In this document: positions 5,060-48,395 of the stretch, piece after piece
Layout of the letters: every line of letters starts with the position of its first letter
Position numbering within the stretch: the first letter of the stretch is position 1
DNA from: Calothrix sp. NIES-2098
GTDB taxonomy: Bacteria > Cyanobacteriota > Cyanobacteriia > Cyanobacteriales > Nostocaceae
Assembly (NCBI GenBank): GCA_002368175.1
Contig: AP018172.1
Coordinates: 221,599-285,598, forward strand
Reading direction: 5' to 3'
DNA: 64,000 nt
Made by a program: the position numbers and the translations under genes
The notes under the pieces: generated by a model
What the model was told of the DNA's origin: nothing
The model's input: only the letters and a program-made list of their open reading frames with translations
Database searches by the model: none

Positions 5060-5130
5060 ATTTCAGCCTAAAGATATTGACTTTTGTATATACTTAGTAG
5101 AGCAATTATTTATGTGAATGAAACAAAAAA

Positions 5131-5176
5131 CACCTGGGAGTGTTGCCGTGTTTCCACCCCAGGTGCTTTTCGTTTT
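5131..5176 (+). terminator. Rho-independent terminator after the LysR gene
   Basis: CACCTGGG-(19 nt)-CCCAGGTG stem followed by CTTTTCGTTTT. Confidence 0.6.
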
Positions 5177-5280
5177 AACTTGCTCCTCACACACAAATAA
5201 ACAATATCACCAGTTCTGTTAATATTTGGTATTTTAGATAACAATTTTAGAAAATCTTCAAGTTTTTTACTAAGTTATTA

Positions 5281-9119: not shown

Positions 9120-9224
9120 TGACTGCGATGTAATGGGAAGCAACCTTTTACACCGAAAAAGTATTTAGTCCGAGAACAAAAAGCGCTATAACAGCGTAGG
9201 AACCTAAACAATTCGGAGAATCTC

Positions 9225-9890: not shown

Positions 9891-9975
9891 TTCTTAGTTG
9901 TAGAAATTCAACGACAGATAAACACCGATAAACATTTCTGTGTTTATCTGCTCCCTTCCCAAATCCCTTAAAACC

Positions 9976-11274
9976 ATGTCCCTAGCCTCGTTTTTAGCAC
10001 GTCGTTCGCTTCACTATGGCTGGCTTGTCGCAGGTTTAACATTCTTAGCGTTATTAGTAGCAGCCGGAATTCGTTCTGCACCAGGAGTTCTGATTGTACC
10101 CTTAGAGCAGGAGTTTGGCTGGAGCAGAGCTACTATCTCCTTGGCAATTTCCCTGAATTTAGTACTGTATGGACTGATTGGCCCGTTTGCGGCTGCGGTT
10201 ATGGAACGCATCGGTATTCGCCGGACGATGGTATTTGCGCTGGCTTTTATCGCTCTTGGTGTTGGTTTAACCACTTTCATGTCAGCTTCCTGGCAGTTAG
10301 TCTTGCTTTGGGGAATCATTGTCGGTAGTGGTAGCGGAGTCATCGCCTTAGTATTAGGTGCGGTTGTTGTCAATCGTTGGTTTGTGGAACGGCGGGGTTT
10401 GGTTCTGGGAATTCTGACGGCCAGCACAGCTACCGGACAACTAGTGTTTCTGCCGATATTGGCGTCGGTCGTGGAAAGGTTGGGATGGCGAACAGCTACC
10501 TTAGCTTTAGCTGGTATTGCACTTGTAGTTACTCCCGCGATCGCCTTATTCATGCGCGATCGCCCTGCGGAAGTTGGCTTGCGGCCTTTTGGCGATTACA
10601 GCGAAACTGTGGAAGTAATACCGCCAAAAGTCAATTCCATCACTTCAACACTCAGTAAAATTTGGCAGGGCTTCAAATCTCGTGACTTTTGGTTGTTATG
10701 TAGCAGTTTTTTTATCTGTGGTGCCAGCACTAACGGACTCATTGGTACTCATCTAATTCCCGCTTGTATCGATCATGGTATCCCTGAAGTTAAGGCTGCG
10801 GGACTGTTGGCGATTATGGGAATTTTTGATTTTATCGGCACAACTATTTCCGGTTGGTTGTCCGATCGCTGGAACAATCGCTACTTGCTTTGCTGGTACT
10901 ACGGTCTGCGGGGTATATCCCTAATTTTTCTACCCTTCAGTTTTCACTTCTCATTCTACGGACTTTCAATCTTTGCAATCTTCTACGGACTCGACTGGAT
11001 TGCCACAGTACCGCCCACAGTTCGTCTTGTAGCTAACGTCTTCGGCAAAGAGAATGTCGGCGTCATGTTCGGCTGGATTGTCGCCGGACATCAACTCGGC
11101 GCAGCTACAGCCGCCTTCGGAGCCGGAGCGCTGAGAACCTGGCAGGGTAGTTACCTTCAGGCGTTTATTTTTTCGGGTGTTCTGTGTCTGATAGCCGCAG
11201 TCTTAGTGCTACGAATTGGTCAAAGCCCTACTAAGAATAATTCTCAGCTTTCTTCAGCCACCATTAATCCCTAG
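9976..11274 (+). CDS. MFS transporter
   Basis: About 12 predicted TM segments; GxxxDRxGRR-like motif (MERIGIRRTM). Start chosen at MSLASFLARR; the ORF track begins at 9940. Confidence 0.8.
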   Translation: MSLASFLARRSLHYGWLVAGLTFLALLVAAGIRSAPGVLIVPLEQEFGWSRATISLAISLNLVLYGLIGPFAAAVMERIGIRRTMVFALAFIALGVGLTTFMSASWQLVLLWGIIVGSGSGVIALVLGAVVVNRWFVERRGLVLGILTASTATGQLVFLPILASVVERLGWRTATLALAGIALVVTPAIALFMRDRPAEVGLRPFGDYSETVEVIPPKVNSITSTLSKIWQGFKSRDFWLLCSSFFICGASTNGLIGTHLIPACIDHGIPEVKAAGLLAIMGIFDFIGTTISGWLSDRWNNRYLLCWYYGLRGISLIFLPFSFHFSFYGLSIFAIFYGLDWIATVPPTVRLVANVFGKENVGVMFGWIVAGHQLGAATAAFGAGALRTWQGSYLQAFIFSGVLCLIAAVLVLRIGQSPTKNNSQLSSATINP

Positions 11275-11296
11275 TCAGCAAAAGGAAATCGCACCT

Positions 11297-11986
11297 ATGC
11301 CAAAAACAGCTTTAATAGTTGGAGCAGGTAATGGATTAAGTGCCTCTATCGCTCGTTTATTTGCCAAAGAAGGACTGAACATAGCCTTAGCTGCTCGCAG
11401 CATTGAGAAACTGACTCAGCTGAGTAGTGAAATTGGAGCGGTTAGCTTTGCTGCTGATGCTTCCAAACCAGAGGAGGTAGATCGGTTATTTGTCGATGTC
11501 GAAAATAAACTCAGTGCCCCGACAGTTGTTGTTTACAATCCTAGTTTTCGAGTCCGCGGGGCTTTAATTGATTTAGATCCTAATGAAGTTGCAAAAACTT
11601 TAGACATCACTGCCTACGGAGGCTTTCTGGTTGCCCAAGCTGCCGCTAGAAGGATGTTACAGCAGGGAGGCGGTGCTATCTTTTTTACTGGAGCCTCAGC
11701 AAGCGTTAAAGGTTATGCACAATCTGCACCTTTTGCGATGGGAAAATTTGCACTCAGGGGTTTAGCTCAAAGCATCGCCAGGGAACTAGCACCCAAGAAT
11801 ATCCATGTGGCGCATTTTGTAATCGATGGAGCCATTCGTTCCACAGAACGCCAAGATCCAAAAGACAACCCTGATAGTACTCTCGATCCTGATGCGATCG
11901 CCCAAACTTATCTCAACATCTTAAATCAACCCCGCAGCGCTTGGACTTGGGAAGTAGAATTGCGCCCTTGGGTCGAGCGTTTTTAA
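11297..11986 (+). CDS. SDR-family oxidoreductase
   Basis: MPKTALIVGAGNGLSASIARLFAKEGLNIALAARS with AAGGAAA RBS upstream. The ORF track begins at 11216 and overlaps the MFS gene; the internal start is preferred. Confidence 0.8.
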   Translation: MPKTALIVGAGNGLSASIARLFAKEGLNIALAARSIEKLTQLSSEIGAVSFAADASKPEEVDRLFVDVENKLSAPTVVVYNPSFRVRGALIDLDPNEVAKTLDITAYGGFLVAQAAARRMLQQGGGAIFFTGASASVKGYAQSAPFAMGKFALRGLAQSIARELAPKNIHVAHFVIDGAIRSTERQDPKDNPDSTLDPDAIAQTYLNILNQPRSAWTWEVELRPWVERF

Positions 11987-35228: not shown

Positions 35229-35477
35229 AGGATGGGGCGCTCGCACAGTTTAGGACTCACACAACTAACTATATTATTTACTTTTTGAGTGGGCAGAGGC
35301 TAGTAGTGATCCGCCTACTTCAGACTTTATTTTTTATATGTCACATAATTTACATATTTTTAAATTTGTCATAGACAGTGGAAGTGATTGTTTATGTATA
35401 AATTTATAGATTCTATTTAGTAGGAATTTTTTGAATTTTATTCCCCAATACATTTTCTTTGTAGCAGTTTTAAAATT

Positions 35478-36020
35478 ATGCCCCAGCAAACAGAAGTATT
35501 AGTTCAGCAGGGAGTAATCAAGGCTTCTAGGAACAATTTACTTAGTTCTATTGATGAAGCCATAGAGCATTTTGAAGATTATGAAACGCAGATAATCCTC
35601 AAAAAATATGGTTTTGATGTAAACTCTCTGCTTGACGATTTGAATGATTCTAAGGATTGGATATCTCAACTAATCAACGATCAGCAAAGCTGTCATGCTG
35701 CTGTAGCAGAATACATACATAGCAACAGGAGTTTGGGTTGGATGTCAGAAGATTGTGAAGCAATCATTCAGCAATGTCGAGAAGAAATTATTGCCTCAAT
35801 AGAATTCGGCGGTGAATATAATTCTAAACTAGAAAATTTTGCTTTTGAATTAAAATCTCATCTATCTAAATATCCGGAAAAGCACAAACAAGTTATTCAG
35901 GAATTAAAAAATGATAAACAAAAAGAGATAAATGCAGAAAATGAGTATTCAGACAAAGTACTTTTGTATGAAAAATATGATGTTATACTCCGAAGAATAG
36001 ATGATATTCCTGAAAAATAG
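35478..36020 (+). CDS. Hypothetical acidic cytoplasmic protein (AT-rich island)
   Basis: 180 aa with no recognisable motif. Lies at the edge of a low-GC region. Confidence 0.4.
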   Translation: MPQQTEVLVQQGVIKASRNNLLSSIDEAIEHFEDYETQIILKKYGFDVNSLLDDLNDSKDWISQLINDQQSCHAAVAEYIHSNRSLGWMSEDCEAIIQQCREEIIASIEFGGEYNSKLENFAFELKSHLSKYPEKHKQVIQELKNDKQKEINAENEYSDKVLLYEKYDVILRRIDDIPEK

Positions 36021-36070
36021 TTTTCGGGAGTTGCTCTAAAAGTTTAAGCCATTTGATTTTTGAAATATAG

Positions 36071-36093
36071 GTAGGGTGGGCAATGCCCACCTA
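36071..36093. repeat. Intact copy of the palindromic repeat GTAGGGTGGGCAATGCCCACCTA
   Basis: Near-perfect palindrome (GGTGGGCA A TGCCCACC) in the convergent intergenic gap. It is the same sequence that is split by the MITE at 13656-13870. Confidence 0.8.
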
Positions 36094-36181
36094 AACTTCA
36101 GCTTCAATCATAAGAAAATTTTTGATCAAAAAACACACGTAATTACTATACTTCGTCTAAGTATACTAAGGACAAACTAAG

Positions 36182-36763
36182 CTATTGAGAAATTAAGGGT
36201 TTCCGATTTCTATCACGCATACGTTTTGCTAGTTGAGGGTTAGGTCTGGTAAATTGTTCACCTGTAAAAATTTCAATGCTTGCCAGGATTTCTTTTAATT
36301 TTTTTGTTGACAATTCAATTTTTTCTATTTCTTTACTAAGATTGTTAATTTCTTCACTTAGTAATTGATATGTCGTACTCTGGGAATTCAAATTTACTAG
36401 TTCATGTTCTATTTGTTTTTTTCTATGTCTACTTTGTTCTAATTGGTTTTCTAATCTGTGAATATCTCTACTAAACCTGAGAATTTTTCTAGGCAGATTT
36501 CTATTAATAATATCTTGTTTTATACGTTTTTCTTCTTCCAAAATATCCTGTGACTTTTTATGTAATTGCTCTGTTTCCCTGTCTGTAATCTGTGTTAACC
36601 CTTGAAGTAATTCTGGTTTTGGATTTTTTGTGATTTCATTTGTGTGTTTATTCAAGGTTTGTTGATCTAAATAAAAAACTTTATGTTTTGTCACAAGCAA
36701 AGCAGCAAAAATACCACTAACAAAGGCTATTACTATAAATAATACTTGACTAATAATTATCAT
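36182..36763 (-). CDS. Hypothetical membrane-anchored coiled-coil protein
   Basis: N-terminal TM helix (IIISQVLFIVIAFVSGIFAALLV), then a charged heptad-rich region (EEEKRIKQDIINRNLP...LENQLEQSRHRKKQIEHELVNL). Very AT-rich coding sequence. Confidence 0.5.
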   Translation of the reverse strand: MIIISQVLFIVIAFVSGIFAALLVTKHKVFYLDQQTLNKHTNEITKNPKPELLQGLTQITDRETEQLHKKSQDILEEEKRIKQDIINRNLPRKILRFSRDIHRLENQLEQSRHRKKQIEHELVNLNSQSTTYQLLSEEINNLSKEIEKIELSTKKLKEILASIEIFTGEQFTRPNPQLAKRMRDRNRKPLISQ

Positions 36764-36943
36764 ATTTTATTTATTTTAATACTAAAAAATATCTTTGGGA
36801 TTTACAGATCAATACATGAACATATACAGCATTCTATCTTTTAAGTTATGTGCAACTAGATACTTGCATACCTGCTAAATAAATAATTCTAAACTTTATA
36901 ATTATTAAATCTCATGATCTTAAATCACTCTATACATAACTTG

Positions 36944-37816
36944 TTAAGAGTTTTCTAACAAATGTATTCGCTCTTCAATCTCTTGCATTTGTTCGCTATC
37001 ATAGTTACTATGAAGTTCTCGTAATATATTTTTCATTTGTTCTAATTGTATCTTCAAATTTGGATTTGCATTTAAGCTATGATTGTTTAAACTATAAAAA
37101 ATATATTTAATTGCTCCTAATTCTTCCTCTAAACACTCTAGAATTGCACTTCCTTGATAATCATATTGTAAATTTTGCAGAATCCGAATTGCTCTAAGAC
37201 GTTCTTGCAAAGCAATTGGCTGATTAAACGTCTGGTATTCTTTAAAATAAAAAGGTTGTTGAACTTGCTGTTGTATATCTATCTGTTCTGCAGATAGAAC
37301 AGAAACTTGATATTCTAGCCATTTAAGCTTTACCTCAATTCTATATAGTTTTTCCTCTGTTGCAGTCCACAAATTTTCCTGTAAGTTATTCTGAATTTTA
37401 ACTAATTCTTCTTTTTCTAGCCAATCTTGTAATTTTCTTGTAATAGCCTCTTTATCTTGTTCACGAGATAAAACACTTGTGAACCATTGATATCCAAAAA
37501 AAGTTAGTGAGATAGTTACTACCGTACCTACAAGTGATAAAAAAATCGTATCCAAAAGGCTCTTGTTGTACTCTTTCATCAACTCTAAAGCATCTTGGGT
37601 ATCCTCTTTAGGAGAATTTGAACTTTGAGGGAGTGGGGTATTAATTTTACTGTTAGTCGATGGGATAGCGATCGCAGTTAAAGGTTCTTGAGCATAAAGC
37701 GGTTTATTAAGACTTTGCGTACCTAAAAAATATCCGATGGATAAAGATAAACAAATTAAGAAAATTAATATAAGATTATGTTTGTGAAAAAATAATCGAT
37801 AATTATGTTTTTGCAT
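36944..37816 (-). CDS. Hypothetical membrane coiled-coil protein (2 TM)
   Basis: TM1 LILIFLICLSLSIGYFL and TM2 IFLSLVGTVVTISLTFFGY, then a long coiled-coil/Gln-rich C-terminal region. Very AT-rich. Confidence 0.5.
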   Translation of the reverse strand: MQKHNYRLFFHKHNLILIFLICLSLSIGYFLGTQSLNKPLYAQEPLTAIAIPSTNSKINTPLPQSSNSPKEDTQDALELMKEYNKSLLDTIFLSLVGTVVTISLTFFGYQWFTSVLSREQDKEAITRKLQDWLEKEELVKIQNNLQENLWTATEEKLYRIEVKLKWLEYQVSVLSAEQIDIQQQVQQPFYFKEYQTFNQPIALQERLRAIRILQNLQYDYQGSAILECLEEELGAIKYIFYSLNNHSLNANPNLKIQLEQMKNILRELHSNYDSEQMQEIEERIHLLENS

Positions 37817-37985
37817 GAGTCTACGTAATTGTTAAACTTCAGAAATATTAGTCTGAAATTGCAATAACACTTGAAAATCAGTCCGAGAGCCGTTCAAATT
37901 ATGACAATAAACTTGGGATGCTTGATGCATTTTACATTAGTATCAAACATCTCAAGCCATTTTGAAAACTAAAGTTACTTCTGCT

Positions 37986-38396
37986 TTACAAGCGATCGCA
38001 CTCCACAATACTCTGCAATAGTTTCTGCTCTTCAATCATGGCGCGACGGATACGATTAATCATATAGCAAGCTGTATTTCTATTTACCTCTATTTTGGAA
38101 GCTAGAGCGCGTACTGTGATTGTGTTTGGTGACTTTATCACAAGCTCAATCGCCAAAAACCACTTATGTAAATCTACATAAGTTTTATGAAAGAGAGTTC
38201 CAACTGTAACGCTATAGGAATTAAAGCATGTGTTGCAATGATACCTGCGTTCTCGCTTGATTGCTGTAGAATTAATTGACTCGCAATAGGGGCATTTTGG
38301 TGTTCCACTCCAGCGGATTTTTTCTAAGTAAGCTAGGCAATCTTCGTGAGTGCGTGTCATTTTTAAACCCAGAGTTACTGAGTTAAAAAGACGCAC
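37986..38396 (-). pseudogene. Fragment of an IS1595/ISXO2-like transposase: N-terminal zinc-ribbon/HTH only, DDE domain absent
   Basis: EDCLAYLEKIRWSGTPKCPYCESINSTAIKRERRYHCNTCFNSYSVTVGTLFHKTYVDLHKWFLAIELVIKSPNTITVRALASKIEVNRNTACYMINRIRRAM matches the N-terminal Zn-ribbon of IS1595-family transposases. Length is 136 aa against about 300 aa for a full transposase. Confidence 0.6.
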
Positions 38397-38669
38397 AGTT
38401 TGACTGTATAAGTTACGTAAAGCTTAATTTAGCCAATAACAGCGAAAATTCAAGGCTGTTTGCCTAGGAATATAAGTTTTTATAAAAAAGCTACAGTTAA
38501 TTTATGCTACCAATACTCAATGCCACGATCGCTTTTAATACAGCAATACATACTGATACCTCTGGATTGTAATTCAAAGCGATCGCCATTATTCGACATT
38601 TAACCAAGGTAGCAGTTAGAACAAAGTAAGAATTGTTACTTTTAAATTTTGTTTTAACGAGAAAATATT

Positions 38670-40091
38670 ATGACTGAAGAAAAGACATACTTAGAGCTTT
38701 CAGAAGCTAGTGGCGGCTCCCATAAATTTTATGAAGTTATCGTCAAAGATACGCAAGTGACCATACGCTATGGTCGCATTGGTGACACAGGACAAACCCA
38801 GACTAAAACTTACCCCACCCCAGACAAAGCTAAAGCAGACGCTAACAAAAAGATCAAAGAAAAACTGGCGAAAGGTTACGAACACGCCGTTATGGGCGTG
38901 CGCCAGAAGCGTCCTGTTACCCGACGTGCAGTTACGAGTACCCAATCGACAGCCCAACAAGCGCCAATTTTGTGGAAATTTAATTCTAATTCTGCCGCCT
39001 TTGGCATTTTTGTTGACAGTAATCGCTGTTGGGTGGGTAATCAAGCAGGTCAAGTTTTTGCGCTAAATCACCAAGGTCAAGTTATCAATCAGTTTAAGCT
39101 TCCCGATGGCGTTAAATGTTTAGTTGCTGATGATATTTGGATTTATGCTGGCTGCGATAACGGCAACGTCTACGACCTCACAGGCAAATTACCACGTATT
39201 GCCTATGAAATTGATGAAAATGTTGATATTTTCTGGCTGGATATCAAAAACGGTTTATTAGCAGTCTCCGATGCCAACGGTGGTGTCACCACCATCGATC
39301 ATGATGATGAGTCACAATGGACTCGTTTAAGTCAAGGTGATTCTGGCTGGATGGTACGTTGCGACGAAGTTGGTGTTTATCACGGTCATAGTCAAGGCGT
39401 GACTATGTACGATAACAAAGAAGGTCGGATGCTTTGGCATCAAAAGACTGCTGGCGGTGTACTATTTGGTTGGCAAGAAGCATCAGCTGTTTATGCGGGT
39501 GCAAGCGATCAAAAGATTTACTGCTTTAGCAAGAAGGGTGAGGCTGGCGCAGTTTACAAATGTGATGCTGCTGTCTACTCTTGCGCTACAGCCTTAGATG
39601 GAAAGTATGTTTTTGCTGGTGACAATAGTTCTTCGATTTACTGCTTCAACAAATCAGGAGAACGCCTTTGGAAACTTGGAACTGGTTGCGGTTCTGCTTT
39701 ATCTATGCAATTTTTTGAGCATCGCATTTATATTGTCACCACCGATGGTTCTCTGGCTTGTATAGATACTAGTGAAGCTGCTATCCAAGCCGCCCAAGTG
39801 GGTACAATTCCGCAAGCAGCTATTATTAAAGCACCAGCCGGAGAAGGTGCAGCACCTTCCGCAGTGGTGGAAACTACAACAGATACCAGCCAAGGAGTAA
39901 TTGTTGAGTGCTTCCGGGAAGGGAGTAAACTCAGGGTGCGGGTTGTCTCGCTAGGATATAACCCTAACTGGAAAGTACAGTTTCCTAAAGATATCCGCCA
40001 AGAAGGACAGCGTTATCTTGTCCAAGAAATACGCGAATCAGCTAGTGGAGGTTTTTACCGCGCTTATGGTGATATTAAAAAGTTAGTCTAG
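38670..40091 (+). CDS. WGR-domain protein fused to a PQQ/BamB-like beta-propeller
   Basis: N-terminal SHKFYEVIVKDTQVTIRYGRIGDTGQTQTKTYPTPDKAKADANKKIKEKLAKGYE is the WGR fold. Repeated ...G.VYA..../...IYCF... blades follow. Hypothetical function. Confidence 0.6.
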   Translation: MTEEKTYLELSEASGGSHKFYEVIVKDTQVTIRYGRIGDTGQTQTKTYPTPDKAKADANKKIKEKLAKGYEHAVMGVRQKRPVTRRAVTSTQSTAQQAPILWKFNSNSAAFGIFVDSNRCWVGNQAGQVFALNHQGQVINQFKLPDGVKCLVADDIWIYAGCDNGNVYDLTGKLPRIAYEIDENVDIFWLDIKNGLLAVSDANGGVTTIDHDDESQWTRLSQGDSGWMVRCDEVGVYHGHSQGVTMYDNKEGRMLWHQKTAGGVLFGWQEASAVYAGASDQKIYCFSKKGEAGAVYKCDAAVYSCATALDGKYVFAGDNSSSIYCFNKSGERLWKLGTGCGSALSMQFFEHRIYIVTTDGSLACIDTSEAAIQAAQVGTIPQAAIIKAPAGEGAAPSAVVETTTDTSQGVIVECFREGSKLRVRVVSLGYNPNWKVQFPKDIRQEGQRYLVQEIRESASGGFYRAYGDIKKLV

Positions 40092-40493: not shown

Positions 40494-42404
40494 CTAACGA
40501 GTATATTTAAGACTTTCCATCTTCCCTAAAAACTTATCTGTGAAGATACTTATAACAGTGCGTTTGCGAACGTTAATATTAGCACTTAAAGACATTCCAG
40601 ATTGTAGTGGTACTTCTGCACCATTAATATTCATTGATTGCTTTGTTAGCCGAATTTCTGCTGGGAAACGATAGTATTGATGGGTTTGATCGGGTGGTAA
40701 AGCATCAGAACCGACACGAATTAATTCTCCTTTAATATCGCTAAATTCAGTGTAAGGAAAAGAATCAAGTCTGACATCAACAGGCATTCCCGCTTTGACA
40801 AAGCCAATATCATTATTGGTGATGAAAACTTGTGCAACTAAATTTTCTGGAGGCACAATTTTGAGAATAGATTCGCTGCTGTTATAAACGTATCCCGGAC
40901 TACGAGGCTTTAAATCAAAAACAATACCATCATTTGCAGCTCGCAGTTCTTGGTATTTCATATTTAACTGGAGTTCGCTGATTTGACTGTTAATTTCTTG
41001 GATTTTTTTATTGTTTTCGACAATAACTTTGGTAAGTTGACTATCTATTTCAGTGATGCGCTTTTCGTTATCGGCGATTTTGCTAAGTAATTCTTCTTTA
41101 GAAAGGGCGATCGCATTTTGTAATTTCTTTTGTCCTTGGGCGATCGCTAATCTTAAACGTTCTTCTTCTTGCACCAAGCGGTTTACCTCAGCTTGGCTAG
41201 CATCTGCTGCTTGTCTTCGTTCTAGATAAGGTAAGCGCGCAAATGCTCCCTTTTGCACGAGAGTTTCTAAGTTATTGGCAATCTCTAAATTTGTCTTCAG
41301 ACTACTTCTAGCGTTAATCAGTTGGACTTGCACCTGATTTAGCTGCCGAGTTAACTGTTCTCTATCCAACCTGACTGACTCAATGCGAGACTCTCTTTCT
41401 AATTGCCTAGTTAGTAAGCGTTGGCGAAATCTTGGATTTAAGTCGCGTATTCCCTGCCCTTCGTTTAATTCTGCCTGAAACAGTTGATTTTCCTGCACCA
41501 ATGCTGCACGATTTTCTGTTAGCGCTGCTAATTCGGGTAAATTCTGTAACTGCTTGGGACTAGAATTAGCTGTGAGCGATCGCATCTGCGTTTTGTAAAA
41601 CTCATTTTCTGCCATTAAGCTGGCGCGAACTGCTTGCAAAGAAGCTAATTTCGCCTGACTGGTGGTGCGATCGAAGCTAACTAACAAATCGCCTTTTTTG
41701 ACTCTTTGCCCTTCCTGCACGTGAATTTGGGCAATTACCCCGCCAACTGGTGCTTGAACTTCTTTCACAAAACCTTTCGGTTCGAGTTTACCTTGCACGG
41801 CAACAGATTCGTCAATCTTGGCATTACAAGCCCAGATGACTGCAAAAGTTGTGACTCCAACTATGCTCCAGACAATAGCATGAGACCAAGCACGAGATTG
41901 TTTGAGGATGACAGGCTGATCGAATTCCTCTTTCTCCTCAGGTAAAGTCAGTCCGGAACCACCGAAAACACCTACATCTCCTTGTAGAAGCAGTTGCCAT
42001 TGACGCTGGGCTTGTGGGAACCGCTTCCAGATTAAAAATATTCCTCCAACGGCAAACAAGAATAAAAATCCGCCCGTAGGTAGAAGCATTTCCAGATGAA
42101 AAGGGCGATATTCAACAGCATCAACATAATTTTTCTGATAATCGCTCTTTTGTTGTAAAAACGGTTGATTTTGGGATTGGGCTTGCGCCACCGTTGAGTC
42201 GATTTTACGCTCGCTTCGCGAATCTTCACGAGCGATAGGTGATGAAAGTGCTAACTCCATGCTTTCTGGTTGACTAACACAAGCACTTGGATCGGATGTT
42301 ACTGGAGTTTTATCATCAGCACGAATTTCTTGGCAAGAATTAGCAGGTGTTTGAGAGATTTTGGAACATTGTGTGCAAGCTAGCAGCAAAGATAAATCTG
42401 GCAT
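40494..42404 (-). CDS. HlyD-family membrane fusion protein of a type I secretion system, with a long N-terminal extension
   Basis: TM anchor (FLFLFAVGGIFLIW), long coiled coils, and the C-terminal beta-barrel/lipoyl region (VQGKLEPKGFVKEVQAPVGGVIAQIHVQEGQRVKKGDLLVSFD ... VRLDSFPYTEFSDIKGELIRVGSDA). N-terminal 120 aa are Ser/Gln-rich. The true start is uncertain. Confidence 0.8.
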   Translation of the reverse strand: MPDLSLLLACTQCSKISQTPANSCQEIRADDKTPVTSDPSACVSQPESMELALSSPIAREDSRSERKIDSTVAQAQSQNQPFLQQKSDYQKNYVDAVEYRPFHLEMLLPTGGFLFLFAVGGIFLIWKRFPQAQRQWQLLLQGDVGVFGGSGLTLPEEKEEFDQPVILKQSRAWSHAIVWSIVGVTTFAVIWACNAKIDESVAVQGKLEPKGFVKEVQAPVGGVIAQIHVQEGQRVKKGDLLVSFDRTTSQAKLASLQAVRASLMAENEFYKTQMRSLTANSSPKQLQNLPELAALTENRAALVQENQLFQAELNEGQGIRDLNPRFRQRLLTRQLERESRIESVRLDREQLTRQLNQVQVQLINARSSLKTNLEIANNLETLVQKGAFARLPYLERRQAADASQAEVNRLVQEEERLRLAIAQGQKKLQNAIALSKEELLSKIADNEKRITEIDSQLTKVIVENNKKIQEINSQISELQLNMKYQELRAANDGIVFDLKPRSPGYVYNSSESILKIVPPENLVAQVFITNNDIGFVKAGMPVDVRLDSFPYTEFSDIKGELIRVGSDALPPDQTHQYYRFPAEIRLTKQSMNINGAEVPLQSGMSLSANINVRKRTVISIFTDKFLGKMESLKYTR

Positions 42405-42506
42405 AGTTCTACTGGGTCGTTGTCCTTTGTCAGTTGTCAGTTGTCAGCCATTTATTTGTCCTTTGTCCTTCGTCAGTTGTCCTCCGCGTCTCTGCGTCTC
42501 AGTTAT

Positions 42507-45428
42507 TCATAACTGTGATTCCTGTTGTTGAAACAGACAGTAATAGCGTCCTTTCATTGCCATGAGTTCGGCGTGGGTTCCTTGCTCGGCAATTACACCC
42601 CGATCCATAATGATGATGGTGTCGGCATTTCTAACAGTGTTGAGTCGGTGGGTAATAAATAAAACAGTACGACCTTGAAAAAACTCCATCAGATTGCGAC
42701 AGACTTGTTGTTCTAATTCGTAATCTAAAGCACTAGTAGCTTCATCAAGAATCAGTAATCTAGGATTTTGCAAAACGGTACGAGCGATCGCAATGCGTTG
42801 GCGTTGTCCTCCAGAAAGGGCAGAACCTCGTTCCCCAACAATGGTGTTGTAGCCGTTGGGTAAGGCCATGATGAAATCGTGCGCTGCTGCAACTTTGGCG
42901 GCGGCGATGATTTCCTCGGTAGTGGCATCCGGACGAATTAAAGCAATATTATCTTGAATTGTCCCTTCAAATAAAAGGGTATCTTGTAACACTATCCCAA
43001 TTTGGCGGCGTAAGGAGTTTAACTCTACTTTCCTTATATCATAACCATCTATTTGGATGTGTCCGGCTACAGGTTCGTACAGACGCGGTAATAATTTTGT
43101 CAAAGTGCTTTTACCAGAGCCGCTTTGACCGACAATACCAACAAAAGTTCCTGGGGCAATTTCTAAATTGATATTGATCAGTTTTAAACTATCTTCTGGG
43201 TTAAATCCAAAGGAAACTCCATTGTATTTAATTGCACCTGCAATTTCTGGTAGTGCAATATTGTTGCGATCGCTTGGCTGAACTTCTGGTGCTGTATCTA
43301 AAATGTCACTAAGGCGTTCGATAGACAATGCTACTTCTTGGAAATTCTGTGATAGTTGAATTAACCGCAGCAAGGGACTAGTAACATAACCAGCAATGAT
43401 CCGAAAGGCAATCAATTGTCCTAAAGTGAGTTGATTGGAGATGACTAAATGCGCGCCTACCCACAACAACACAAAACTCGAAAATTGATTTAAAAATCCA
43501 CTGATAGAATTAGCAGTACTGGAAGTTAGGACATTTTTAAAGCCAGCACTGATGTAACGAGTATAGCGATCGCGCCATTGCCAACGAGATTTTAATTCAA
43601 TATTCTGTGCCTTGACTGTTTGAATGCCAGTGAGAATCTCCACTAAATAGGATTGAGTATCGGCGTGGCGTTCGGCTTTTGTGCGTAACTGTCTCTGCAC
43701 AATCGGCACCACAAAGGTTGTCAAGATGGCAAACAATGGCACAGTAGCTAAGGCAACGAGGGTGAGCATCCAGCTGTAAAACAGCATAATGCCGATATAA
43801 ATCACAGAGAACACAGCATCTAGTACCACTGTCAATGCTGTTCCTGTGAGAAAAGAACGAATATTTTCTAGTTCGTTAATTCGTCCTGCTAATTCTCCGA
43901 CGCGACGACGTTCAAAATAACTCAGAGGTAATTTGAGTAAATGCTCAATAACTTCTGAACCCAAACGGATATCAATACGGTTGGTAGTGTCGGCAAATAG
44001 ATAAATCCGCAGGCTCGTTAAAGCCGCCTCAAACACTCCAATTACCAACAAGAAAATGCCCAAAATATCGAGGGTATCCAGACTTTTCTGAATTAATACA
44101 GTGTCGATGATGATTTGGGTAACGATCGGATTTGCCAAACCAAATATCTGCACAAAAAAGGAAGCCACCAGGACTTCAACCAACACCAGACGATATTTAT
44201 AGATGGAAGGTAGGAACCAACGCAGACTAAATTTTTCGGGGCGATCGCCTTCTGCCTTTTCCACCGTCAATACTTGTCCAGACTCTCCCCAAATTTGGGC
44301 AAATTCCGCAGGAGAATATTGGCATACTCCTGTTTCAGGAGCCGCAACAACCAATTCCCGTTCGGTAATTTTGTATAGCAAAGCAAGATTGTCTCGCCAA
44401 TAAATCAAGGCTGGCGCAGTCAACCGATTAATTACATGAGCCGGAACTGTAACTAACTGGGCTTGCAAACCCATCATTTCGATAACTGCACCAGCCACTG
44501 GTAAGGAAATCTGCTTGTGCGTTTTTAGTTGATTGGTTAAGACTTTGCGAATTAAATCGCGGCGGAAAGAACCCCCCAATATCTGATTCAACATCTGGAA
44601 ACAGGCTAAAGGAGCATCAATAACTCCGTTTCCCGATACAAATATCGTTTGTGCTGGTGCTAGATTTTCGACAATGGGGTCTGGGGGATATTCTGGAGCC
44701 GGAGTAATAGTTAAACTAGCACCATATTCATTAGGAGACTGCCAGGGAATACCAATTAATCGGACTGCGGCTGTATTTTCCCAAATCTCTTGAGAGCCAT
44801 CCAACGCTAATCTATAGCCAACAGTCATACCCTCTATACTGCCAGCACTAACTAGCCACAAATGCCGTTTGTTAAACTGCTGGGAATTAACTGGCCCCGG
44901 AACTAAATTTACTACCTGCGTTTGTTGCCAAACTTCACGTGCTAAATCTTTAATATCGGTGGTTGCATCTGCATGACGCTGAATTTCCAGACTTAAGAGT
45001 TCAAAAACTTCGCTAATGTGGGGACGCGATCGCACTGCTTCGGCAAACTCTGGTTCTGTATCCATCAATTGTAGAAATTCTGCGGCTTCTAGAGTTATCG
45101 CGATCGCATCTGTGGAGGCCATAACAGCCTCGCAACTGAATCCCCGCAACAATCCCAACCAACCAAGAAACTCTCCTTCTTCTACTACAGCCAAACTAAT
45201 TTGTGAGTTTGTCCATTGGTCGTAACCTAATACCCGCGCCTGTCCTTGATAAATCACCATGACTTGTGCTGGCATTCTTTCTTTAACCAACATCCATTGT
45301 CCGGTGCGATATTGCAATAGTTGGCAGTTAAAGGCGATGTTTTTTAAGGTATTAAATGGCAGTGTATTAAACGGGGGAGTGTCAATAAGGAAGGCTAAAA
45401 TTTCGGTCTGGGTGATAGCTGGCTTCAT
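42507..45428 (-). CDS. T1SS ABC exporter with an N-terminal cyclic-nucleotide-binding domain and a degenerate C39-like peptidase domain
   Basis: The cNMP-binding-like region is FNCQLLQYRTGQWMLVKERMPAQVMVIYQGQARVL...EEGEFLGWLGLL. The C39-like region DAPLACFQMLNQILG has Ala where the catalytic Cys is expected. Six TM helices follow. NBD has Walker A GQSGSGKST, signature LSGGQRQRIAIAR and Walker B LLILDEATSALD. Confidence 0.85.
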   Translation of the reverse strand: MKPAITQTEILAFLIDTPPFNTLPFNTLKNIAFNCQLLQYRTGQWMLVKERMPAQVMVIYQGQARVLGYDQWTNSQISLAVVEEGEFLGWLGLLRGFSCEAVMASTDAIAITLEAAEFLQLMDTEPEFAEAVRSRPHISEVFELLSLEIQRHADATTDIKDLAREVWQQTQVVNLVPGPVNSQQFNKRHLWLVSAGSIEGMTVGYRLALDGSQEIWENTAAVRLIGIPWQSPNEYGASLTITPAPEYPPDPIVENLAPAQTIFVSGNGVIDAPLACFQMLNQILGGSFRRDLIRKVLTNQLKTHKQISLPVAGAVIEMMGLQAQLVTVPAHVINRLTAPALIYWRDNLALLYKITERELVVAAPETGVCQYSPAEFAQIWGESGQVLTVEKAEGDRPEKFSLRWFLPSIYKYRLVLVEVLVASFFVQIFGLANPIVTQIIIDTVLIQKSLDTLDILGIFLLVIGVFEAALTSLRIYLFADTTNRIDIRLGSEVIEHLLKLPLSYFERRRVGELAGRINELENIRSFLTGTALTVVLDAVFSVIYIGIMLFYSWMLTLVALATVPLFAILTTFVVPIVQRQLRTKAERHADTQSYLVEILTGIQTVKAQNIELKSRWQWRDRYTRYISAGFKNVLTSSTANSISGFLNQFSSFVLLWVGAHLVISNQLTLGQLIAFRIIAGYVTSPLLRLIQLSQNFQEVALSIERLSDILDTAPEVQPSDRNNIALPEIAGAIKYNGVSFGFNPEDSLKLININLEIAPGTFVGIVGQSGSGKSTLTKLLPRLYEPVAGHIQIDGYDIRKVELNSLRRQIGIVLQDTLLFEGTIQDNIALIRPDATTEEIIAAAKVAAAHDFIMALPNGYNTIVGERGSALSGGQRQRIAIARTVLQNPRLLILDEATSALDYELEQQVCRNLMEFFQGRTVLFITHRLNTVRNADTIIIMDRGVIAEQGTHAELMAMKGRYYCLFQQQESQL

Positions 45429-46177
45429 GCCAAGAGATACTCCACACAATGGTTAGCAGATGGTAAATGAGTTTGAATTTGTGTTTGTATCCAAGCTTCA
45501 AAAAGTTCGTCTAGCAAGTACTGCTGCATATTTTCATCTAACTGAGCAGGTAGTAATTGCTCTAAGCGAATAATTACATACCAATCGGCTATTAAATGCG
45601 GTTTCCAGATTTGACCTGGTTGACTGACATATAGAATTTGCTGAATTATCGGATGTGGTTGAGATAGAGGAACAGGCCCAATTACCCCACCTGTCTGTGC
45701 TTCGCCACCTTGGGAATATTGCTGCGCTATGGTTGCAAAAGGATGTTCTCCCTCTACAATCCGAAAATATAGCTCTTGGGCTAACCCTTCATCTTGGGTA
45801 CGAATCATGGAATATATTACCCGGTCTAAATCTGCTTTGCGGTGCAGAAAGTAAGACTCTAGTTTATTGCCCCAGATTGCAAGCTGAAATTTTCGGATTA
45901 ATAGAGGACGGATGGCTATTTCCTGCATAGTTTCTTGAGTTAGCTGATTCTTTTGCAACCATGCTTGTTCTAACTCTGGTGAAGTCAGTTGGTGACGTTC
46001 GCGAAACTTGGCGATCGCTGTTTGATGTTCTGCTTCCGTGCATGAAAAAGATGCGATCGCCTCTTCGATCGCTTTAGCACGTAATACCTGTGGTAACAAC
46101 TGATAACGATTTAGCAAAGACAGTAATTTTTCTGCCTGAAGAATTTCGTTACCCACTTGTAATGTTTGTGTCGTCAT
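45425..46177 (-). CDS. Cytoplasmic parvulin-like (PpiC-type) peptidyl-prolyl isomerase domain protein, co-transcribed with the T1SS ABC
   Basis: RVIYSMIRTQDEGLAQELYFRIVEGEHPFATIAQQYSQGGEAQTGGVIGPVPLSQ...GQIWKPHLIADWYVIIRLEQ has the rotamase motif. No signal peptide. Its stop overlaps the ABC start (ATGA). Confidence 0.65.
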   Translation of the reverse strand: MTTQTLQVGNEILQAEKLLSLLNRYQLLPQVLRAKAIEEAIASFSCTEAEHQTAIAKFRERHQLTSPELEQAWLQKNQLTQETMQEIAIRPLLIRKFQLAIWGNKLESYFLHRKADLDRVIYSMIRTQDEGLAQELYFRIVEGEHPFATIAQQYSQGGEAQTGGVIGPVPLSQPHPIIQQILYVSQPGQIWKPHLIADWYVIIRLEQLLPAQLDENMQQYLLDELFEAWIQTQIQTHLPSANHCVEYLLA

Positions 46178-46961
46178 AATTCCTGACTAGCACGTTTGGC
46201 ATTCTAAGATTTGGGCAGAAATCTGTACATCTCACGCCGTGAGAGTGTTGAAAGAGACTAGGGAATAAAAAGCCTATCTCTATTTTCTGTTCAGGCATTT
46301 TCTAGCGTATCCGGATTTTTTTCAATAAGCCTTTGTAAAATTTTTTCGCCTCAATTTTTGCCAACTTCGCGAAAACTTTACATTATATCCGGTTTTTAGA
46401 GTAATTTGTTACTAGTTAATATTGATAATACTGATTTTTGTATAAAATTTTAGTATTATTTTACACTTTAAAAAATTAAATCATTAGTTCTGTTTTGCAT
46501 ATAAATAGAGACTTTTATTAGTATAAAGAGGCAATATATACAGAAAATTAGAATTTATAATTTTGGTATAAATTGTATTTTGGCTGCTATGTGACGGTTT
46601 ATCGACCGCCACAAGGCAAGGGTGAAAAAAGCTACTGAATCTTTTATCCTGAGGGGAAGCGATTGATGTATTACTACTTACATCGTTTTCCTTTTAATCT
46701 ACGGGGTCGTCATTCAACTGCCAGAAGCTCAGGCAGATAAAAACCCCTAAATCTGGAAGTCGCATCATCAGGAGAAATATTTCTCTCATACGTAACTTTG
46801 ATGTATCGAACATAAGACTTCACAGTACTTATAAGCTTGTGACAGCTTTACTCTAACTACTCTTTATTTACCCCTCTCCAGGTTTGCTTCTACCAATAAG
46901 TTGCAGCAGAATTTTTCTTGCTGCTGAGTTCATGTGAAGAAATCTTTAAGAGGACGGATCG

Positions 46962-48395
46962 ATGGCAACAACTACTACCCCGACATTTGAACAACAGGTT
47001 CTAGATTTAACCAATCAACAACGAATTAAGAATGGTCTTCAACCACTGCAAGCAAATGCAGAACTCAATTATGCTGCTGACAGCTATGCAGAATTTATGG
47101 CGCAGAACAACTATTTTAGCCATACAGGAAAAGATGGTTCTACTCCCAGAACTAGAGTTAATGCCGTGGGCTTTGATGCTCAAATAGTTGGAGAGAACAT
47201 CGCTTTTGGTCAACAAACACCAAAAGATGTTGTGGATGCTTGGATGAAAAGCCCAGGACATAGAGCTAATATCCTCAATGCCAAATATACTCAAATTGGT
47301 ATAGGTTTTGATAACAAGAATCCGAATAATAGACCGTATTGGGTTCAAGACTTTGGCAGCAATGATACCAACCCAGCGACTAAGATTCCCACTTCAGGTT
47401 CGCAACCAACCCCAACACCAACCCCAACCCCAACCCCAACACCAACCCCAACCCCAACCCCAACCCCAACACCAACCCCAACGCCTACTGGCACATTTGA
47501 ACAGCAAGTTCTGCAACTCACTAATCAAAAACGCGCCGAGAAGGGACTTGCGCCACTCAAAGCTAATGCAGAACTCAATTATGCTGCTGACCGATATGCA
47601 GAATTTATGGCGCAGAACAGCTATTTTAGTCATACAGGGAAAGATGGTTCTACTCCCAGAACTAGAGCTAACGCCGTGGGCTTTGATGCTCAAATAATTG
47701 GAGAGAACATCGCTTTTGGTCAAAAAACACCAAAAGATGTTGTGGATGCTTGGATGAATAGTCCAGGACATAGAGCTAATATCCTCAATGCCAAATTTAC
47801 TCAAATTGGTATAGGTTTTGATAACAAGAATCCGAATAATAGACCATATTGGGTTCAAGACTTTGGCAGCAATGATACCGACCCCACGACCAAGATACCA
47901 ACCGGTGTAAAGGGTTCAGTTTCTGAACTTCCACCTTCAACTACTCCTATCCCTGGTAAAGAACTCAAAGGTAGGAATGGCAATGATATCCTCACTGGCG
48001 GCGCAGGTGATGACACATTGTGGGGTGGTAGAGGTAAAGATACCCTGAATGGAGGCGATGGTAACGATCGCTTGATTGGTGGGTTAGGCAAAGATAAGTT
48101 AACTGGTGGTGGTAACAGCGATACCTTCGTTTATGAAAAACTCCAAGATAGAGGAGATACCATCACTGATTTTGCCGTTAATCAAGATAAAATCGACCTG
48201 CAAAAGATTTTGGCAGGCCCTTCTTACACTGGCACAAATAAATTCGCTGATTACCTAAAGTTTGAACAACTTGGTAGCGATACTGTTGTTCGTCTTGATG
48301 TCGACGGAAAAGCAAAAGCTGGTGGCTTTGAGAAGTTTGTGCTGTTGGAAAATGTCAAGGCCTCTAGCCTAACCGCTAACAACTTTGTTGTCTAA
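46962..48395 (+). CDS. Secreted T1SS substrate: two tandem CAP (SCP/PR-1-like) domains, a PT linker, RTX calcium-binding repeats and a C-terminal secretion signal
   Basis: No N-terminal signal peptide. CAP domain 1 (about 46983-47400) and CAP domain 2 (about 47490-47904) are about 90% identical (HTGKDGSTPRTR...SPGHRANILN...YWVQDFG). Linker is (PT)n. Five nonapeptide repeats: LTGGAGDDT LWGGRGKDT LNGGDGNDR LIGGLGKDK LTGGGNSDT. AAGAGGA RBS upstream. Confidence 0.8.
   Translation: MATTTTPTFEQQVLDLTNQQRIKNGLQPLQANAELNYAADSYAEFMAQNNYFSHTGKDGSTPRTRVNAVGFDAQIVGENIAFGQQTPKDVVDAWMKSPGHRANILNAKYTQIGIGFDNKNPNNRPYWVQDFGSNDTNPATKIPTSGSQPTPTPTPTPTPTPTPTPTPTPTPTPTPTGTFEQQVLQLTNQKRAEKGLAPLKANAELNYAADRYAEFMAQNSYFSHTGKDGSTPRTRANAVGFDAQIIGENIAFGQKTPKDVVDAWMNSPGHRANILNAKFTQIGIGFDNKNPNNRPYWVQDFGSNDTDPTTKIPTGVKGSVSELPPSTTPIPGKELKGRNGNDILTGGAGDDTLWGGRGKDTLNGGDGNDRLIGGLGKDKLTGGGNSDTFVYEKLQDRGDTITDFAVNQDKIDLQKILAGPSYTGTNKFADYLKFEQLGSDTVVRLDVDGKAKAGGFEKFVLLENVKASSLTANNFVV

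What the first reader, a model, noticed from the sequence alone, without database searches (positions are those of the whole stretch)
38670..40091. WGR domain fused to a beta-propeller in a bacterial protein
The WGR domain is best known from PARPs and a few poorly characterised bacterial proteins, where it is proposed to bind nucleic acids or ADP-ribose polymers. Here it heads a PQQ/BamB-like propeller and a roughly 70-aa C-terminal domain, with no signal peptide. The gene sits between an AT-rich acquired island and the T1SS locus. Function is unknown, and the architecture merits structural prediction.
Basis: partly seen in the sequence, partly recalled or inferred. Interest (0 to 1): 0.5.

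Follow-up and report, generated by a model that had tools for sequence, protein, structure and literature searches.

The report
Conserved WGR-propeller protein linked to retrons
This gene encodes a real, highly conserved cytoplasmic protein (a DNA-binding WGR head, a seven-bladed propeller and a small barrel tail) whose relatives in other bacteria sit in one operon with the classic myxobacterial-type retron and often a DNA ligase, a link I did not find in the papers I could search.

Summary
ORF 38670..40091 (+) encodes 473 aa: a WGR domain (Pfam E=9e-20, residues 5-73), a conserved basic linker, a 7-bladed PQQ_2/BamB-like propeller (100-366) and a ~70-aa beta-barrel tail with no Pfam match. 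Fold matches for the tail are weak but are mostly OB folds. The N-terminus is acidic, with no signal peptide.

The architecture is not rare. More than 1,700 homologues were found, 57-95% identical over the full length in at least seven phyla.

In 24 of 81 genome loci and 22 of 80 metagenome loci, the orthologue lies with the type XIII (Mx162-type) retron module: a WGR-HEAT protein, a SWIM protein, msr-msd and the RT. An ATP-dependent DNA ligase is often there too. Gene orders vary. Apparently eukaryotic relatives replace WGR with BRCT, SAP or histone-H1 heads.

I read the protein as a DNA- or msDNA-tethered adaptor. In this window the gene stands alone. It lies in a housekeeping block, next to a 3.4-kb AT-rich insertion and an unrelated T1SS, and no retron gene occurs within 64 kb. 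Whether it serves a retron encoded elsewhere or acts alone is unresolved.

The BamB and "molybdenum regulator" annotations are not supported. Interest 0.6.

The parts
38670..40091 (+). Complete ORF, 473 aa plus stop: WGR-propeller-tail protein
   Evidence: ORF list. 95% identical to Aulosira sp. ZfuVER01 and 91% to Nostoc carneum orthologues of the same length.
38682..38888 (+). WGR domain, residues 5-73. The motif is Y34-G35-R36-I37-G38, with G35, R36, I37 and G38 invariant.
   Evidence: Pfam PF05406 E=9.3e-20. Matches PDB 2ra8 (B. fragilis WGR protein) at E=2e-7 and PARP3 WGR 2eoc at E=0.13. Invariant columns in A1. 37% identical to the WGR head of the retron XIII WGR-HEAT protein.
38889..38966 (+). 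Conserved basic linker, residues 74-99 (GVRQKRPVTRR...)
   Evidence: G76, R78, K80, R81, T84, R86, S90, S93 and P99 are invariant in A1. pLDDT is lower here, 66-77.
38967..39767 (+). Seven-bladed PQQ_2/BamB-like beta-propeller, residues 100-366
   Evidence: Pfam PQQ_2 above cut-off. 28 strands in the AF2 model, pLDDT about 90. Foldseek finds only generic propellers.
39768..39881 (+). Short helix (369-376) and a variable, low-complexity connector, residues 367-404
   Evidence: AF2 secondary structure. This is the least conserved stretch of A1.
39882..40088 (+). C-terminal beta-barrel tail, residues 405-473. Conserved motifs are LRxR, VQFP, RYxV and GxFYRxxGxI. Possibly OB-like.
38594..38622 (+). 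Promoter-like element TCGACA-N17-TTAGAA, conserved upstream of close orthologues
   Evidence: Alignment of upstream regions from WIN, L001, L002, L011 and L008; sequence read. The consensus scan did not call it, so this is tentative.

Best explanation
The gene encodes a cytoplasmic adaptor tethered to nucleic acid. The N-terminal WGR domain docks on DNA. By analogy with PARP WGR domains, the target would be a structure-specific feature such as an end, a nick or a branched or hybrid junction. The small C-terminal barrel probably adds a single-strand contact. The seven-bladed propeller between them is the platform that binds partner proteins.

The protein is an orthologue of a strongly constrained family. 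In Myxococcota, Acidobacteriota, several non-heterocystous cyanobacteria and some uncultured lineages, that family is encoded in one operon with the type XIII (Mx162/Mx65-type) retron. The operon holds a WGR-HEAT protein, a SWIM protein, msr-msd and the RT, and frequently also an ATP-dependent DNA ligase that carries a SWIM-like finger. The most likely ligand in those systems is therefore the retron's msDNA, or DNA ends handled together with it.

In this genome the gene is detached and has its own promoter-like element inside a housekeeping block. It keeps 90% of the positions that are constrained in the operon-encoded members, so it should have the same biochemical activity. It may act in trans with a retron XIII module elsewhere in the chromosome, as in the Nostocales species Aetokthonos, or on chromosomal DNA.

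Shown: the domain architecture, the conservation, the gene linkage and the domain swaps. Inferred: DNA or msDNA binding, the adaptor role and action in trans.
For: Architecture.

Conservation: the best 120 of 1,725 hits are all at least 67% identical. Identity is 57-66% over the full length in Myxococcota, Actinomycetota, Acidobacteriota, Chloroflexota and Beggiatoa, and 51-52% in Deinococcus and Hymenobacter.

Linkage: the only widely recurrent neighbours are three families. PADLOC calls them WGR_XIII (E=0), SWIM_XIII (7e-235) and RT_XIII (3e-188). The usual order is target, WGR-HEAT, SWIM, 280-bp gap, RT, with 1-12 nt gaps or 4-nt overlaps between genes. The gap carries 33-nt flanking inverted repeats plus an internal hairpin, as a retron msr-msd does. 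The RT's best PDB relatives are retron RTs (Ec86, 4e-46).

Counts: Myxococcota 15/17, Acidobacteriota 2/3, non-Nostocales cyanobacteria 5/15, one Actinomycetota MAG. An independent metagenome set gives 22/80.

Proximity survives rearrangement. The gene is convergent with the RT in Pseudanabaena and Acaryochloris, lies 5 kb away in Coleofasciculus, and follows the RT in L124 and L133.

The operon moves as a unit. The target from the Actinomycetota MAG L057 groups with Acidobacteria and not with other actinomycetes, and so does its SWIM protein. Pairwise-identity matrices of the target against WGR-HEAT, RT and SWIM correlate at r=0.94-0.98, as tightly as the retron proteins correlate with each other.

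Ligase: an ATP-dependent ligase (PF01068 + PF14743, E about 1e-27) is adjacent in 6 genome loci and 13 metagenome loci, in at least 4 gene orders.

Head swaps: the same propeller and tail carry BRCT x2, BRCT+SAP or linker-histone H1 heads in relatives.

Same constraints: 187 of the 207 positions that are at least 90% conserved in retron-linked members are conserved to the same residue in Nostocales.

Action in trans is plausible. Aetokthonos, Synechocystis PCC 7509 and UBA11149 carry both the target and SWIM_XIII. In Aetokthonos and PCC 7509 they are unlinked.
Against: No WGR-HEAT, SWIM, RT or ligase homologue occurs anywhere in the 64-kb window, and no retron RNA was found.

None of 11 Nostocales loci, and only 1 of 25 Actinomycetota loci, has a retron gene within 10 kb.

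None of six loci anchored on SWIM_XIII has the target adjacent, so the retron core does not need it in cis.

A SWIM_XIII query from the one actinomycete operon returned no cultured actinomycetes among its 120 best hits. Many solo carriers may therefore lack the retron altogether.

Co-occurrence could not be tested for this genome or its closest relatives.

The OB assignment of the tail rests on non-significant matches.

No binding or interaction has been measured. The mirror-tree sample is dominated by myxobacteria.
Confidence: 0.55

Rival explanations
1. In this lineage (Nostocales, and likewise cultured actinomycetes and Chloroflexota) the protein is a DNA-break or DNA-nick scaffold that works without any retron. 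It would be a prokaryotic analogue of WGR/BRCT-based damage sensors, and retron XIII operons would have recruited it secondarily.
For: A 'solo' clade contains WIN, the other Nostocales, the cultured actinomycetes and the Chloroflexota. The local synteny is housekeeping and there is no defence island. Protist-like homologues carry BRCT, SAP or H1 heads, where retrons are not expected. The family is linked to a DNA ligase. It occurs in Deinococcus and Hymenobacter without retron neighbours. No cultured actinomycete appears among the best SWIM_XIII hits.
Against: The ligase was seen only in loci that also hold retron genes, apart from one contig that ends inside the ligase. Solo and operon copies share 90% of their constrained positions. 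At least some Nostocales carry retron XIII elsewhere. No repair genes are conserved next to the solo copies.
Confidence: 0.3
2. It reads ADP-ribose or poly(ADP-ribose), or otherwise acts in PARP-like signalling, using the WGR domain.
For: WGR is a PARP signature domain. BRCT-headed relatives recall the PARP1 and XRCC1 domain sets.
Against: No PARP catalytic, macro or ADP-ribosyl-transferase domain is in the protein or among the conserved neighbours. In PARPs the WGR domain contacts DNA, not PAR (established structural knowledge, not tested here).
Confidence: 0.05
3. It is a BamB-like outer-membrane assembly factor or a PQQ-dependent periplasmic enzyme, as some pipelines annotate it ('outer membrane protein assembly factor BamB').
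For: It hits PQQ_2 and weakly hits the BamB models TIGR03300 and PRK11138. JGI names some homologues BamB.
Against: It scores 38 bits against the BamB equivalog cut-off of 285. It has no signal peptide or lipobox (read from the sequence), 7 blades rather than 8, and an N-terminal WGR domain. PDB sequence matches to BamB are only E about 1e-3.
Confidence: 0.02
4. It is a MolR-type 'molybdenum metabolism regulator', as some NCBI records name it.
For: The name appears on several homologues. It is shared only through the WGR domain of E. coli MolR.
Against: There is no HEAT or DUF4132 region and no DNA-binding HTH. No molybdate transport or cofactor genes are conserved nearby. The name is transferred from a single shared domain.
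Confidence: 0.02

Closest known systems
Type XIII retron systems (Retron-Mxa1/Mx162, Mxa2/Mx65, Sau1/Sa163, Nex2/Ne144; Mestre et al. 2020, PMC7736814)
   Same: Orthologues of this protein are encoded in the same operon as the defining type XIII genes: RT clade 10, the SWIM protein (cluster 114) and the WGR-HEAT/ARM protein (cluster 216). They co-vary with those genes. The target shares a WGR head with the WGR-HEAT protein.
   Different: The main text of the classification paper mentions neither 'propeller' nor 'ligase'. The protein matches no PADLOC type XIII model beyond its WGR domain. The retron core often occurs without it. The window copy has no retron gene within 64 kb.
PARP1/2/3 WGR domain (Pfam PF05406)
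   Same: The same domain family, with the G-R-I-G core invariant. In PARPs this domain contacts DNA breaks, and relatives of this protein carry other PARP- or repair-type heads (BRCT, SAP).
   Different: There is no catalytic ART domain, helical domain or zinc fingers. W is replaced by Y. Sequence similarity to PARP3 WGR is marginal (E=0.13).
E. coli MolR/YehI-type WGR-HEAT(-DUF4132) proteins, encoded next to the SWIM protein YehQ
   Same: A WGR head in a bacterial cytoplasmic protein. WGR proteins and SWIM proteins are partners in both settings. The E. coli gene order is from my own knowledge and was not tested here.
   Different: The body is a beta-propeller plus barrel, not alpha-solenoid repeats. 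No MoxR or vWA genes lie nearby in the window.
BamB / PQQ_2 beta-propellers
   Same: The same repeat family at the sequence level and generic propeller fold matches.
   Different: Cytoplasmic, 7 blades, far below the BamB equivalog cut-off, and flanked by nucleic-acid-type domains.
Scaffolds of eukaryotic single-strand-break repair (PARP1-XRCC1-Lig3)
   Same: Conceptually similar: a break-sensing head (WGR or BRCT), a protein-interaction body and a partner ATP-dependent ligase.
   Different: This is an analogy only. There is no homology of the body, and no evidence here for repair activity.

Membership tests
WGR domain (PF05406) | Profile match above the Pfam gathering score | tested here: met
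   71 bits against a cut-off of 22, E=9.3e-20, residues 5-73.
WGR domain (PF05406) | Conserved W-G-R core motif | tested here: met
   Y34-G35-R36-I37-G38. G, R, I and G are invariant and Y is nearly invariant in 31 orthologues. W is replaced by Y.
PARP family | ADP-ribosyltransferase catalytic domain C-terminal to WGR | tested here: not met
   No PARP, ART or helical-domain hit. The rest of the protein is a propeller plus a barrel.
PQQ_2 / BamB-like propeller repeat (PF13360) | Profile match above the gathering score | tested here: met
   37.8 bits against 27.6, three stretches.
BamB (TIGR03300 / PRK11138 equivalogs) | Score above the equivalog cut-off, lipoprotein signal peptide, eight blades | tested here: not met
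   38.2 bits against 285.2 and 26.6 against 423. Acidic N-terminus without a signal peptide (sequence). Seven blades.
MolR-type 'molybdenum metabolism regulator' | WGR followed by HEAT-like repeats and DUF4132 | tested here: not met
   Only WGR is shared; there are no HEAT or DUF4132 hits.
Type XIII retron system (component) | Encoded next to RT_XIII, SWIM_XIII and WGR_XIII/HEAT-ARM_XIII in this genome region | tested here: not met
   tblastn with these proteins finds nothing in the 64-kb window at E<=1.
Type XIII retron system (component) | Family-level conserved linkage with RT_XIII, SWIM_XIII and WGR_XIII across lineages | tested here: met
   24 of 81 genome loci and 22 of 80 metagenome loci, from several phyla, in varied gene orders. 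Co-variation r=0.94-0.98.
Type XIII retron system (component) | Full-length match to a curated type XIII accessory-protein model (PADLOC) | tested here: not met
   Only the WGR head matches WGR_XIII (E=3e-5, residues 10-103). There is also a marginal propeller match to one HEAT-ARM_XIII model (E=1.3e-3).
Type XIII retron system (component) | Retron XIII present elsewhere in the same genome (partner in trans) | not testable with these tools
   Only 64 kb of this genome is available, and the exact protein is not on record. Co-occurrence is shown for Aetokthonos, PCC 7509 and UBA11149 only.
OB-fold nucleic-acid-binding domains (for the C-terminal tail) | Significant structural match to OB folds | tested here: inconclusive

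The most novel reading that the evidence does not exclude
The WGR-propeller-barrel protein is an unrecognised, highly conserved subunit of the oldest known retrons (type XIII, Mx162-like). Together with the WGR-HEAT and SWIM proteins and a dedicated SWIM-type ATP-dependent DNA ligase, it forms a machine that processes msDNA or DNA ends. That machine would have a housekeeping role rather than a purely anti-phage one. The propeller-barrel body would be an ancient DNA-lesion or DNA-end adaptor, which also exists in protists with BRCT, SAP or H1 heads, so solo copies such as this one act on chromosomal DNA.
Probability: 0.3. Interest if true: 0.8.

Novelty: new variant of a known kind. Interest (0 to 1): 0.6.

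Why it matters
Type XIII retrons include Mx162, the first retron discovered. Their accessory proteins have no solved relatives in the PDB, and I found no paper that assigns them a function. Mestre et al. 2020 (PMC7736814) suggested that vertically inherited retrons such as type XIII may have been domesticated for cellular functions other than defence.

This work gives concrete candidates for pull-downs, structures and genetics: a further, unusually constrained partner with a break-sensor-type head, plus a linked ATP-dependent ligase.

For annotation, it shows that the names 'BamB' and 'molybdenum metabolism regulator' on this family are unsupported domain-level transfers.

The BRCT-, SAP- and H1-headed homologues in protist data suggest the propeller-barrel body is a general DNA-associated module. 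That would be of interest beyond retron biology.

Tried and rejected
- Rfam on the window and four retron loci found only Cyano-1 in the window and no retron msr family hit. I therefore identified the msr-msd by its inverted repeats.
- Foldseek of the full model against the PDB gave only generic propellers.
- afdb50 was unavailable.
- A tail-only model and two fold searches gave sub-threshold, OB-themed matches.
- No relatives were found in viral contigs.
- The exact window protein is not on record, so the source genome could not be identified.
- Two rounds of cluster-member look-ups did not reveal strains named for both the target and SWIM_XIII beyond those already seen.
- The first ORF-based neighbourhood clustering failed in high-GC genomes because of antisense ORFs. 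I redid it with a GC3 filter (then 37).
- I looked for a LexA-box-like element upstream. Only a sigma-70-like promoter is conserved among close relatives.
- A C-terminal WGR-like stretch in the ligase, which I suspected by eye, was confirmed neither by an HMM built from the target's WGR domains nor by Pfam.
- Literature searches for WGR plus propeller, WGR plus retron, and retron plus ligase returned nothing relevant beyond Mestre 2020. Its supplementary tables are not held, so a mention there cannot be excluded.

Full report
**The observation.** The window has a 473-codon ORF at exactly 38670..40091 on the + strand. Pfam places a WGR domain at residues 5-73 (71 bits against a cut-off of 22, E=9.3e-20). 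It also finds BamB-type PQQ_2 repeats above threshold in the middle of the protein. NCBIfam's BamB equivalogs are missed by a wide margin: 38 bits against 285. The last ~100 residues match no Pfam family even at E<=10. An AlphaFold2 model built on 31 orthologues is confident (pLDDT 89.4, pTM 0.79). It shows a WGR fold, a conserved basic linker and 28 strands forming seven four-stranded blades (residues 100-366). A short helix and a separate four-strand beta domain at about 405-473 follow. The N-terminus is acidic, with no hydrophobic segment, so the protein is cytoplasmic.

**The local context.** Upstream lie sodB, a panC-cmk fusion, an RlpA-like gene and glutaminase. In Nostoc carneum NIES-2107, Calothrix anomala and Cylindrospermum NIES-4074 the same four genes precede the orthologue. 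In the first two, glutaminase lies directly in front of it. In the window, a 3.4-kb stretch of 29-31% GC separates them. It holds three coiled-coil or membrane ORFs and an IS1595-type zinc-ribbon fragment. So the 'AT-rich island' is a recent insertion. Downstream is a HlyD/C39-ABC type I secretion pair with a CAP-RTX protein nearby. This is not conserved next to the gene elsewhere. A TCGACA-N17-TTAGAA element just upstream of the start is shared with close orthologues. The immediate neighbourhood therefore says nothing about function.

**How common and how conserved the protein is.** A search of 5.8 billion proteins returned 1,725 hits. The best 120 are all 67-95% identical, cover 95-100% of the query, and nearly all are 472-477 residues long. 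In one genome per species, 525 confirmed relatives were found. The best 80 are 57-91% identical over the full length. They come from Cyanobacteria, Myxococcota, Actinomycetota, Acidobacteriota, Chloroflexota and Beggiatoa-like Gammaproteobacteria. Deinococcus, Hymenobacter and Streptomyces carry copies on megaplasmids. About a quarter of all positions are invariant among 31 diverse orthologues, including nine or ten cysteines and the basic linker. Viral contigs contain no relatives. Databases name the family 'WGR domain-containing protein', 'molybdenum metabolism regulator' or 'BamB'. The last two names are domain-level transfers and fail their membership tests.

**Conserved neighbours: the retron.** I called ORFs in 10-kb flanks of 81 loci, using a GC3 filter for high-GC genomes, and clustered them. 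Only three neighbour families recur widely: a ~1,040-aa WGR plus HEAT-repeat protein, a ~548-aa protein ending in a SWIM finger, and a ~480-520-aa reverse transcriptase. PADLOC identifies them as WGR_XIII (E=0), SWIM_XIII (7e-235) and RT_XIII (3e-188). These are the proteins of type XIII retrons, the clade that holds the classic myxobacterial Mx162, Mx65 and Sa163 elements (Mestre et al. 2020, PMC7736814).

The typical order is target, WGR-HEAT, SWIM, a ~280-bp gap, then RT. Gaps between the genes are 1-12 nt, or the genes overlap by 4 nt. The gap contains 33-nt terminal inverted repeats about 190 nt apart and an internal hairpin. In the Nostocales Aetokthonos locus the repeats are 18 nt. This is the layout of an msr-msd gene. 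The RT's closest solved relatives are retron RTs.

A retron gene lies within the flank in:
- 15 of 17 Myxococcota loci
- 2 of 3 Acidobacteriota loci
- 5 of 15 non-Nostocales cyanobacterial loci
- one Actinomycetota MAG and one unclassified bacterium
- 0 of 11 Nostocales loci, and only that one MAG among 25 Actinomycetota loci

An independent scan of metagenome contigs gave 22 of 80.

Proximity persists through rearrangement. The gene is convergent with the RT in Pseudanabaena and Acaryochloris, 5 kb away on the other strand in Coleofasciculus, and downstream of the RT in two metagenome contigs. In a tree of the 81 proteins, the retron-linked copies form one side. The copy from the actinomycete MAG that has the operon groups with Acidobacteria, not with other actinomycetes. 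Its SWIM protein does the same. So the genes travel together. In 11 complete operons, pairwise identities of the target track those of the three retron proteins at r=0.94-0.98 (0 of 2,000 permutations reach this). That is as tight as the retron proteins track each other, although six of the 11 are myxobacterial.

**A second neighbour: a DNA ligase.** A 470-505-aa ATP-dependent DNA ligase (PF01068 plus PF14743, E about 1e-27) with an N-terminal CxCx(n)CxH SWIM-like motif sits next to the target in six genome loci. Those are Haliangiales, Polyangiaceae and one gammaproteobacterial MAG. It also sits next to the target in 13 of the 22 retron-positive metagenome loci. At least four gene orders occur: before the target, after it, after the RT, and divergent. 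The main text of the retron classification paper mentions neither 'propeller' nor 'ligase'. My other literature searches found nothing on this architecture. The supplementary tables of that paper were not available.

**Interpretation.** The best-supported reading is a nucleic-acid-tethered adaptor. WGR docks on a DNA feature, possibly assisted by the basic linker and the OB-like tail, and the propeller recruits proteins. In the operon-encoded members the obvious ligand is the retron's msDNA, or DNA ends handled with the ligase. The operon then contains two WGR heads and two SWIM-type fingers, which suggests a shared ligand or mutual recognition.

For the window's copy the question is whether it still works with a retron.
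- In favour: 187 of the 207 positions that are at least 90% conserved in retron-linked members are conserved to the same residue in Nostocales, and only five conservative substitutions are fixed. Nostocales such as Aetokthonos and Tolypothrix carry an intact WGR-HEAT/SWIM/RT module elsewhere. Aetokthonos and Synechocystis PCC 7509 have both genes unlinked.
- Against: the window has no retron or ligase gene. Six retron loci anchored on SWIM lack the target nearby. Cultured actinomycetes that carry the target did not appear among the best SWIM_XIII hits. The protist-like relatives argue for a retron-independent, DNA-centred core function.

I put about 0.55 on the adaptor model with a retron XIII connection. 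I put about 0.3 on a retron-independent DNA-break scaffold in this lineage. The PAR-reader, BamB and MolR readings get very little.

**Novelty and interest.** The gene is an ordinary member of a family that databases already name, so the architecture itself is not new. What appears new, within the literature I could search, is threefold. The family is a recurrent operon partner of type XIII retrons. A SWIM-type ATP-dependent ligase joins the same neighbourhood. The propeller-tail body recurs with BRCT, SAP and H1 heads. The type XIII accessory proteins have no solved relatives in the PDB and I found no paper giving them a function, so these are testable leads. I rate interest at 0.6. This is a new variant of a known kind, not a categorically new system, and the window's own copy is detached from any retron.

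Noticed in passing
window 35300-38500: A 3.4-kb insertion with 29-31% GC lies between glutaminase and the WGR gene. It is absent from Nostoc carneum, Calothrix anomala and Cylindrospermum. It holds ORFs 35478-36020(+), 36182-36763(-) and 36944-37816(-), which are coiled-coil or membrane proteins with no family, and 37986-38396(-), a 136-aa fragment with only the IS1595 zinc-ribbon domain.
   Followed up: partly
window 40494-48392: A type I secretion locus. It contains HlyD (40494-42404, -), an ABC exporter with an N-terminal cNMP-binding domain and a C39-like domain (42507-45449, -), a PPIC-type rotamase (45425-46174, -) and a CAP-domain protein with RTX repeats that is a plausible substrate (46962-48392, +).
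   Followed up: partly
window 5122-5196 (-): A Cyano-1 sRNA (Rfam RF01701, 56.9 bits against a gathering score of 41). It is the only Rfam hit in the window.
   Followed up: no
window 38670-40091, residues C120, C150, C162, C231, C298, C305, C325, C340, C364, C414: Ten invariant or nearly invariant cysteines in a cytoplasmic propeller and tail. They are concentrated in blades 1-2 and 6-7, which are neighbours in the ring. This could be a metal or redox site.
   Followed up: no
L041 8449-9957; L040 5030-6544; L043 8476-9984; L058 2177-3598; L037 6891-7757; metagenome loci L121, L134, L137, L153, L156, L163 and others: An ATP-dependent DNA ligase with an N-terminal CxCx(n)CxH SWIM-like motif is encoded next to the WGR-propeller gene and the type XIII retron genes. 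Several gene orders occur. The main text of the retron classification paper does not mention it.
   Followed up: partly
P0177, P0230 (Stenamoeba, EukProt); P0171; P0203 (with an MMETSP cluster member); P0214: Homologues of the propeller plus tail carry BRCT, BRCT+SAP or linker-histone H1 heads in place of WGR. They are apparently from protists. Contamination or gene transfer was not resolved.
   Followed up: partly
L088 (Calothrix brevissima NIES-22 plasmid5) 9001-11721: A 49%-identical paralogue on a 58-kb mobilizable plasmid is followed 13 bp later by a second propeller protein. The pair lies beside RecD/TraA and superfamily-I helicase genes and ParAB. The same strain also has the chromosomal orthologue.
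   Followed up: partly
L083 9498-9967; L084 9295-9760: A HicA/HicB toxin-antitoxin pair is inserted between the WGR-HEAT and SWIM genes of the retron XIII module in Tolypothrix and Kamptonema. In Kamptonema and Synechocystis PCC 7509 no RT lies within 10 kb of the SWIM gene.
   Followed up: no
L024 1691-2770: In a Dictyobacter (Chloroflexota) MAG, a 359-aa protein with no Pfam hit but an N-terminal CDCPSW...CKH SWIM-like motif, resembling that of the ligase, lies directly upstream of the WGR-propeller gene.
   Followed up: no
PADLOC model PDLC02919 (HEAT-ARM_XIII, 1972 positions): Propeller residues 189-366 of the window protein match positions 38-195 of this type XIII accessory model weakly (E=1.3e-3). 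Some type XIII HEAT/ARM proteins may therefore carry an N-terminal propeller.
   Followed up: no
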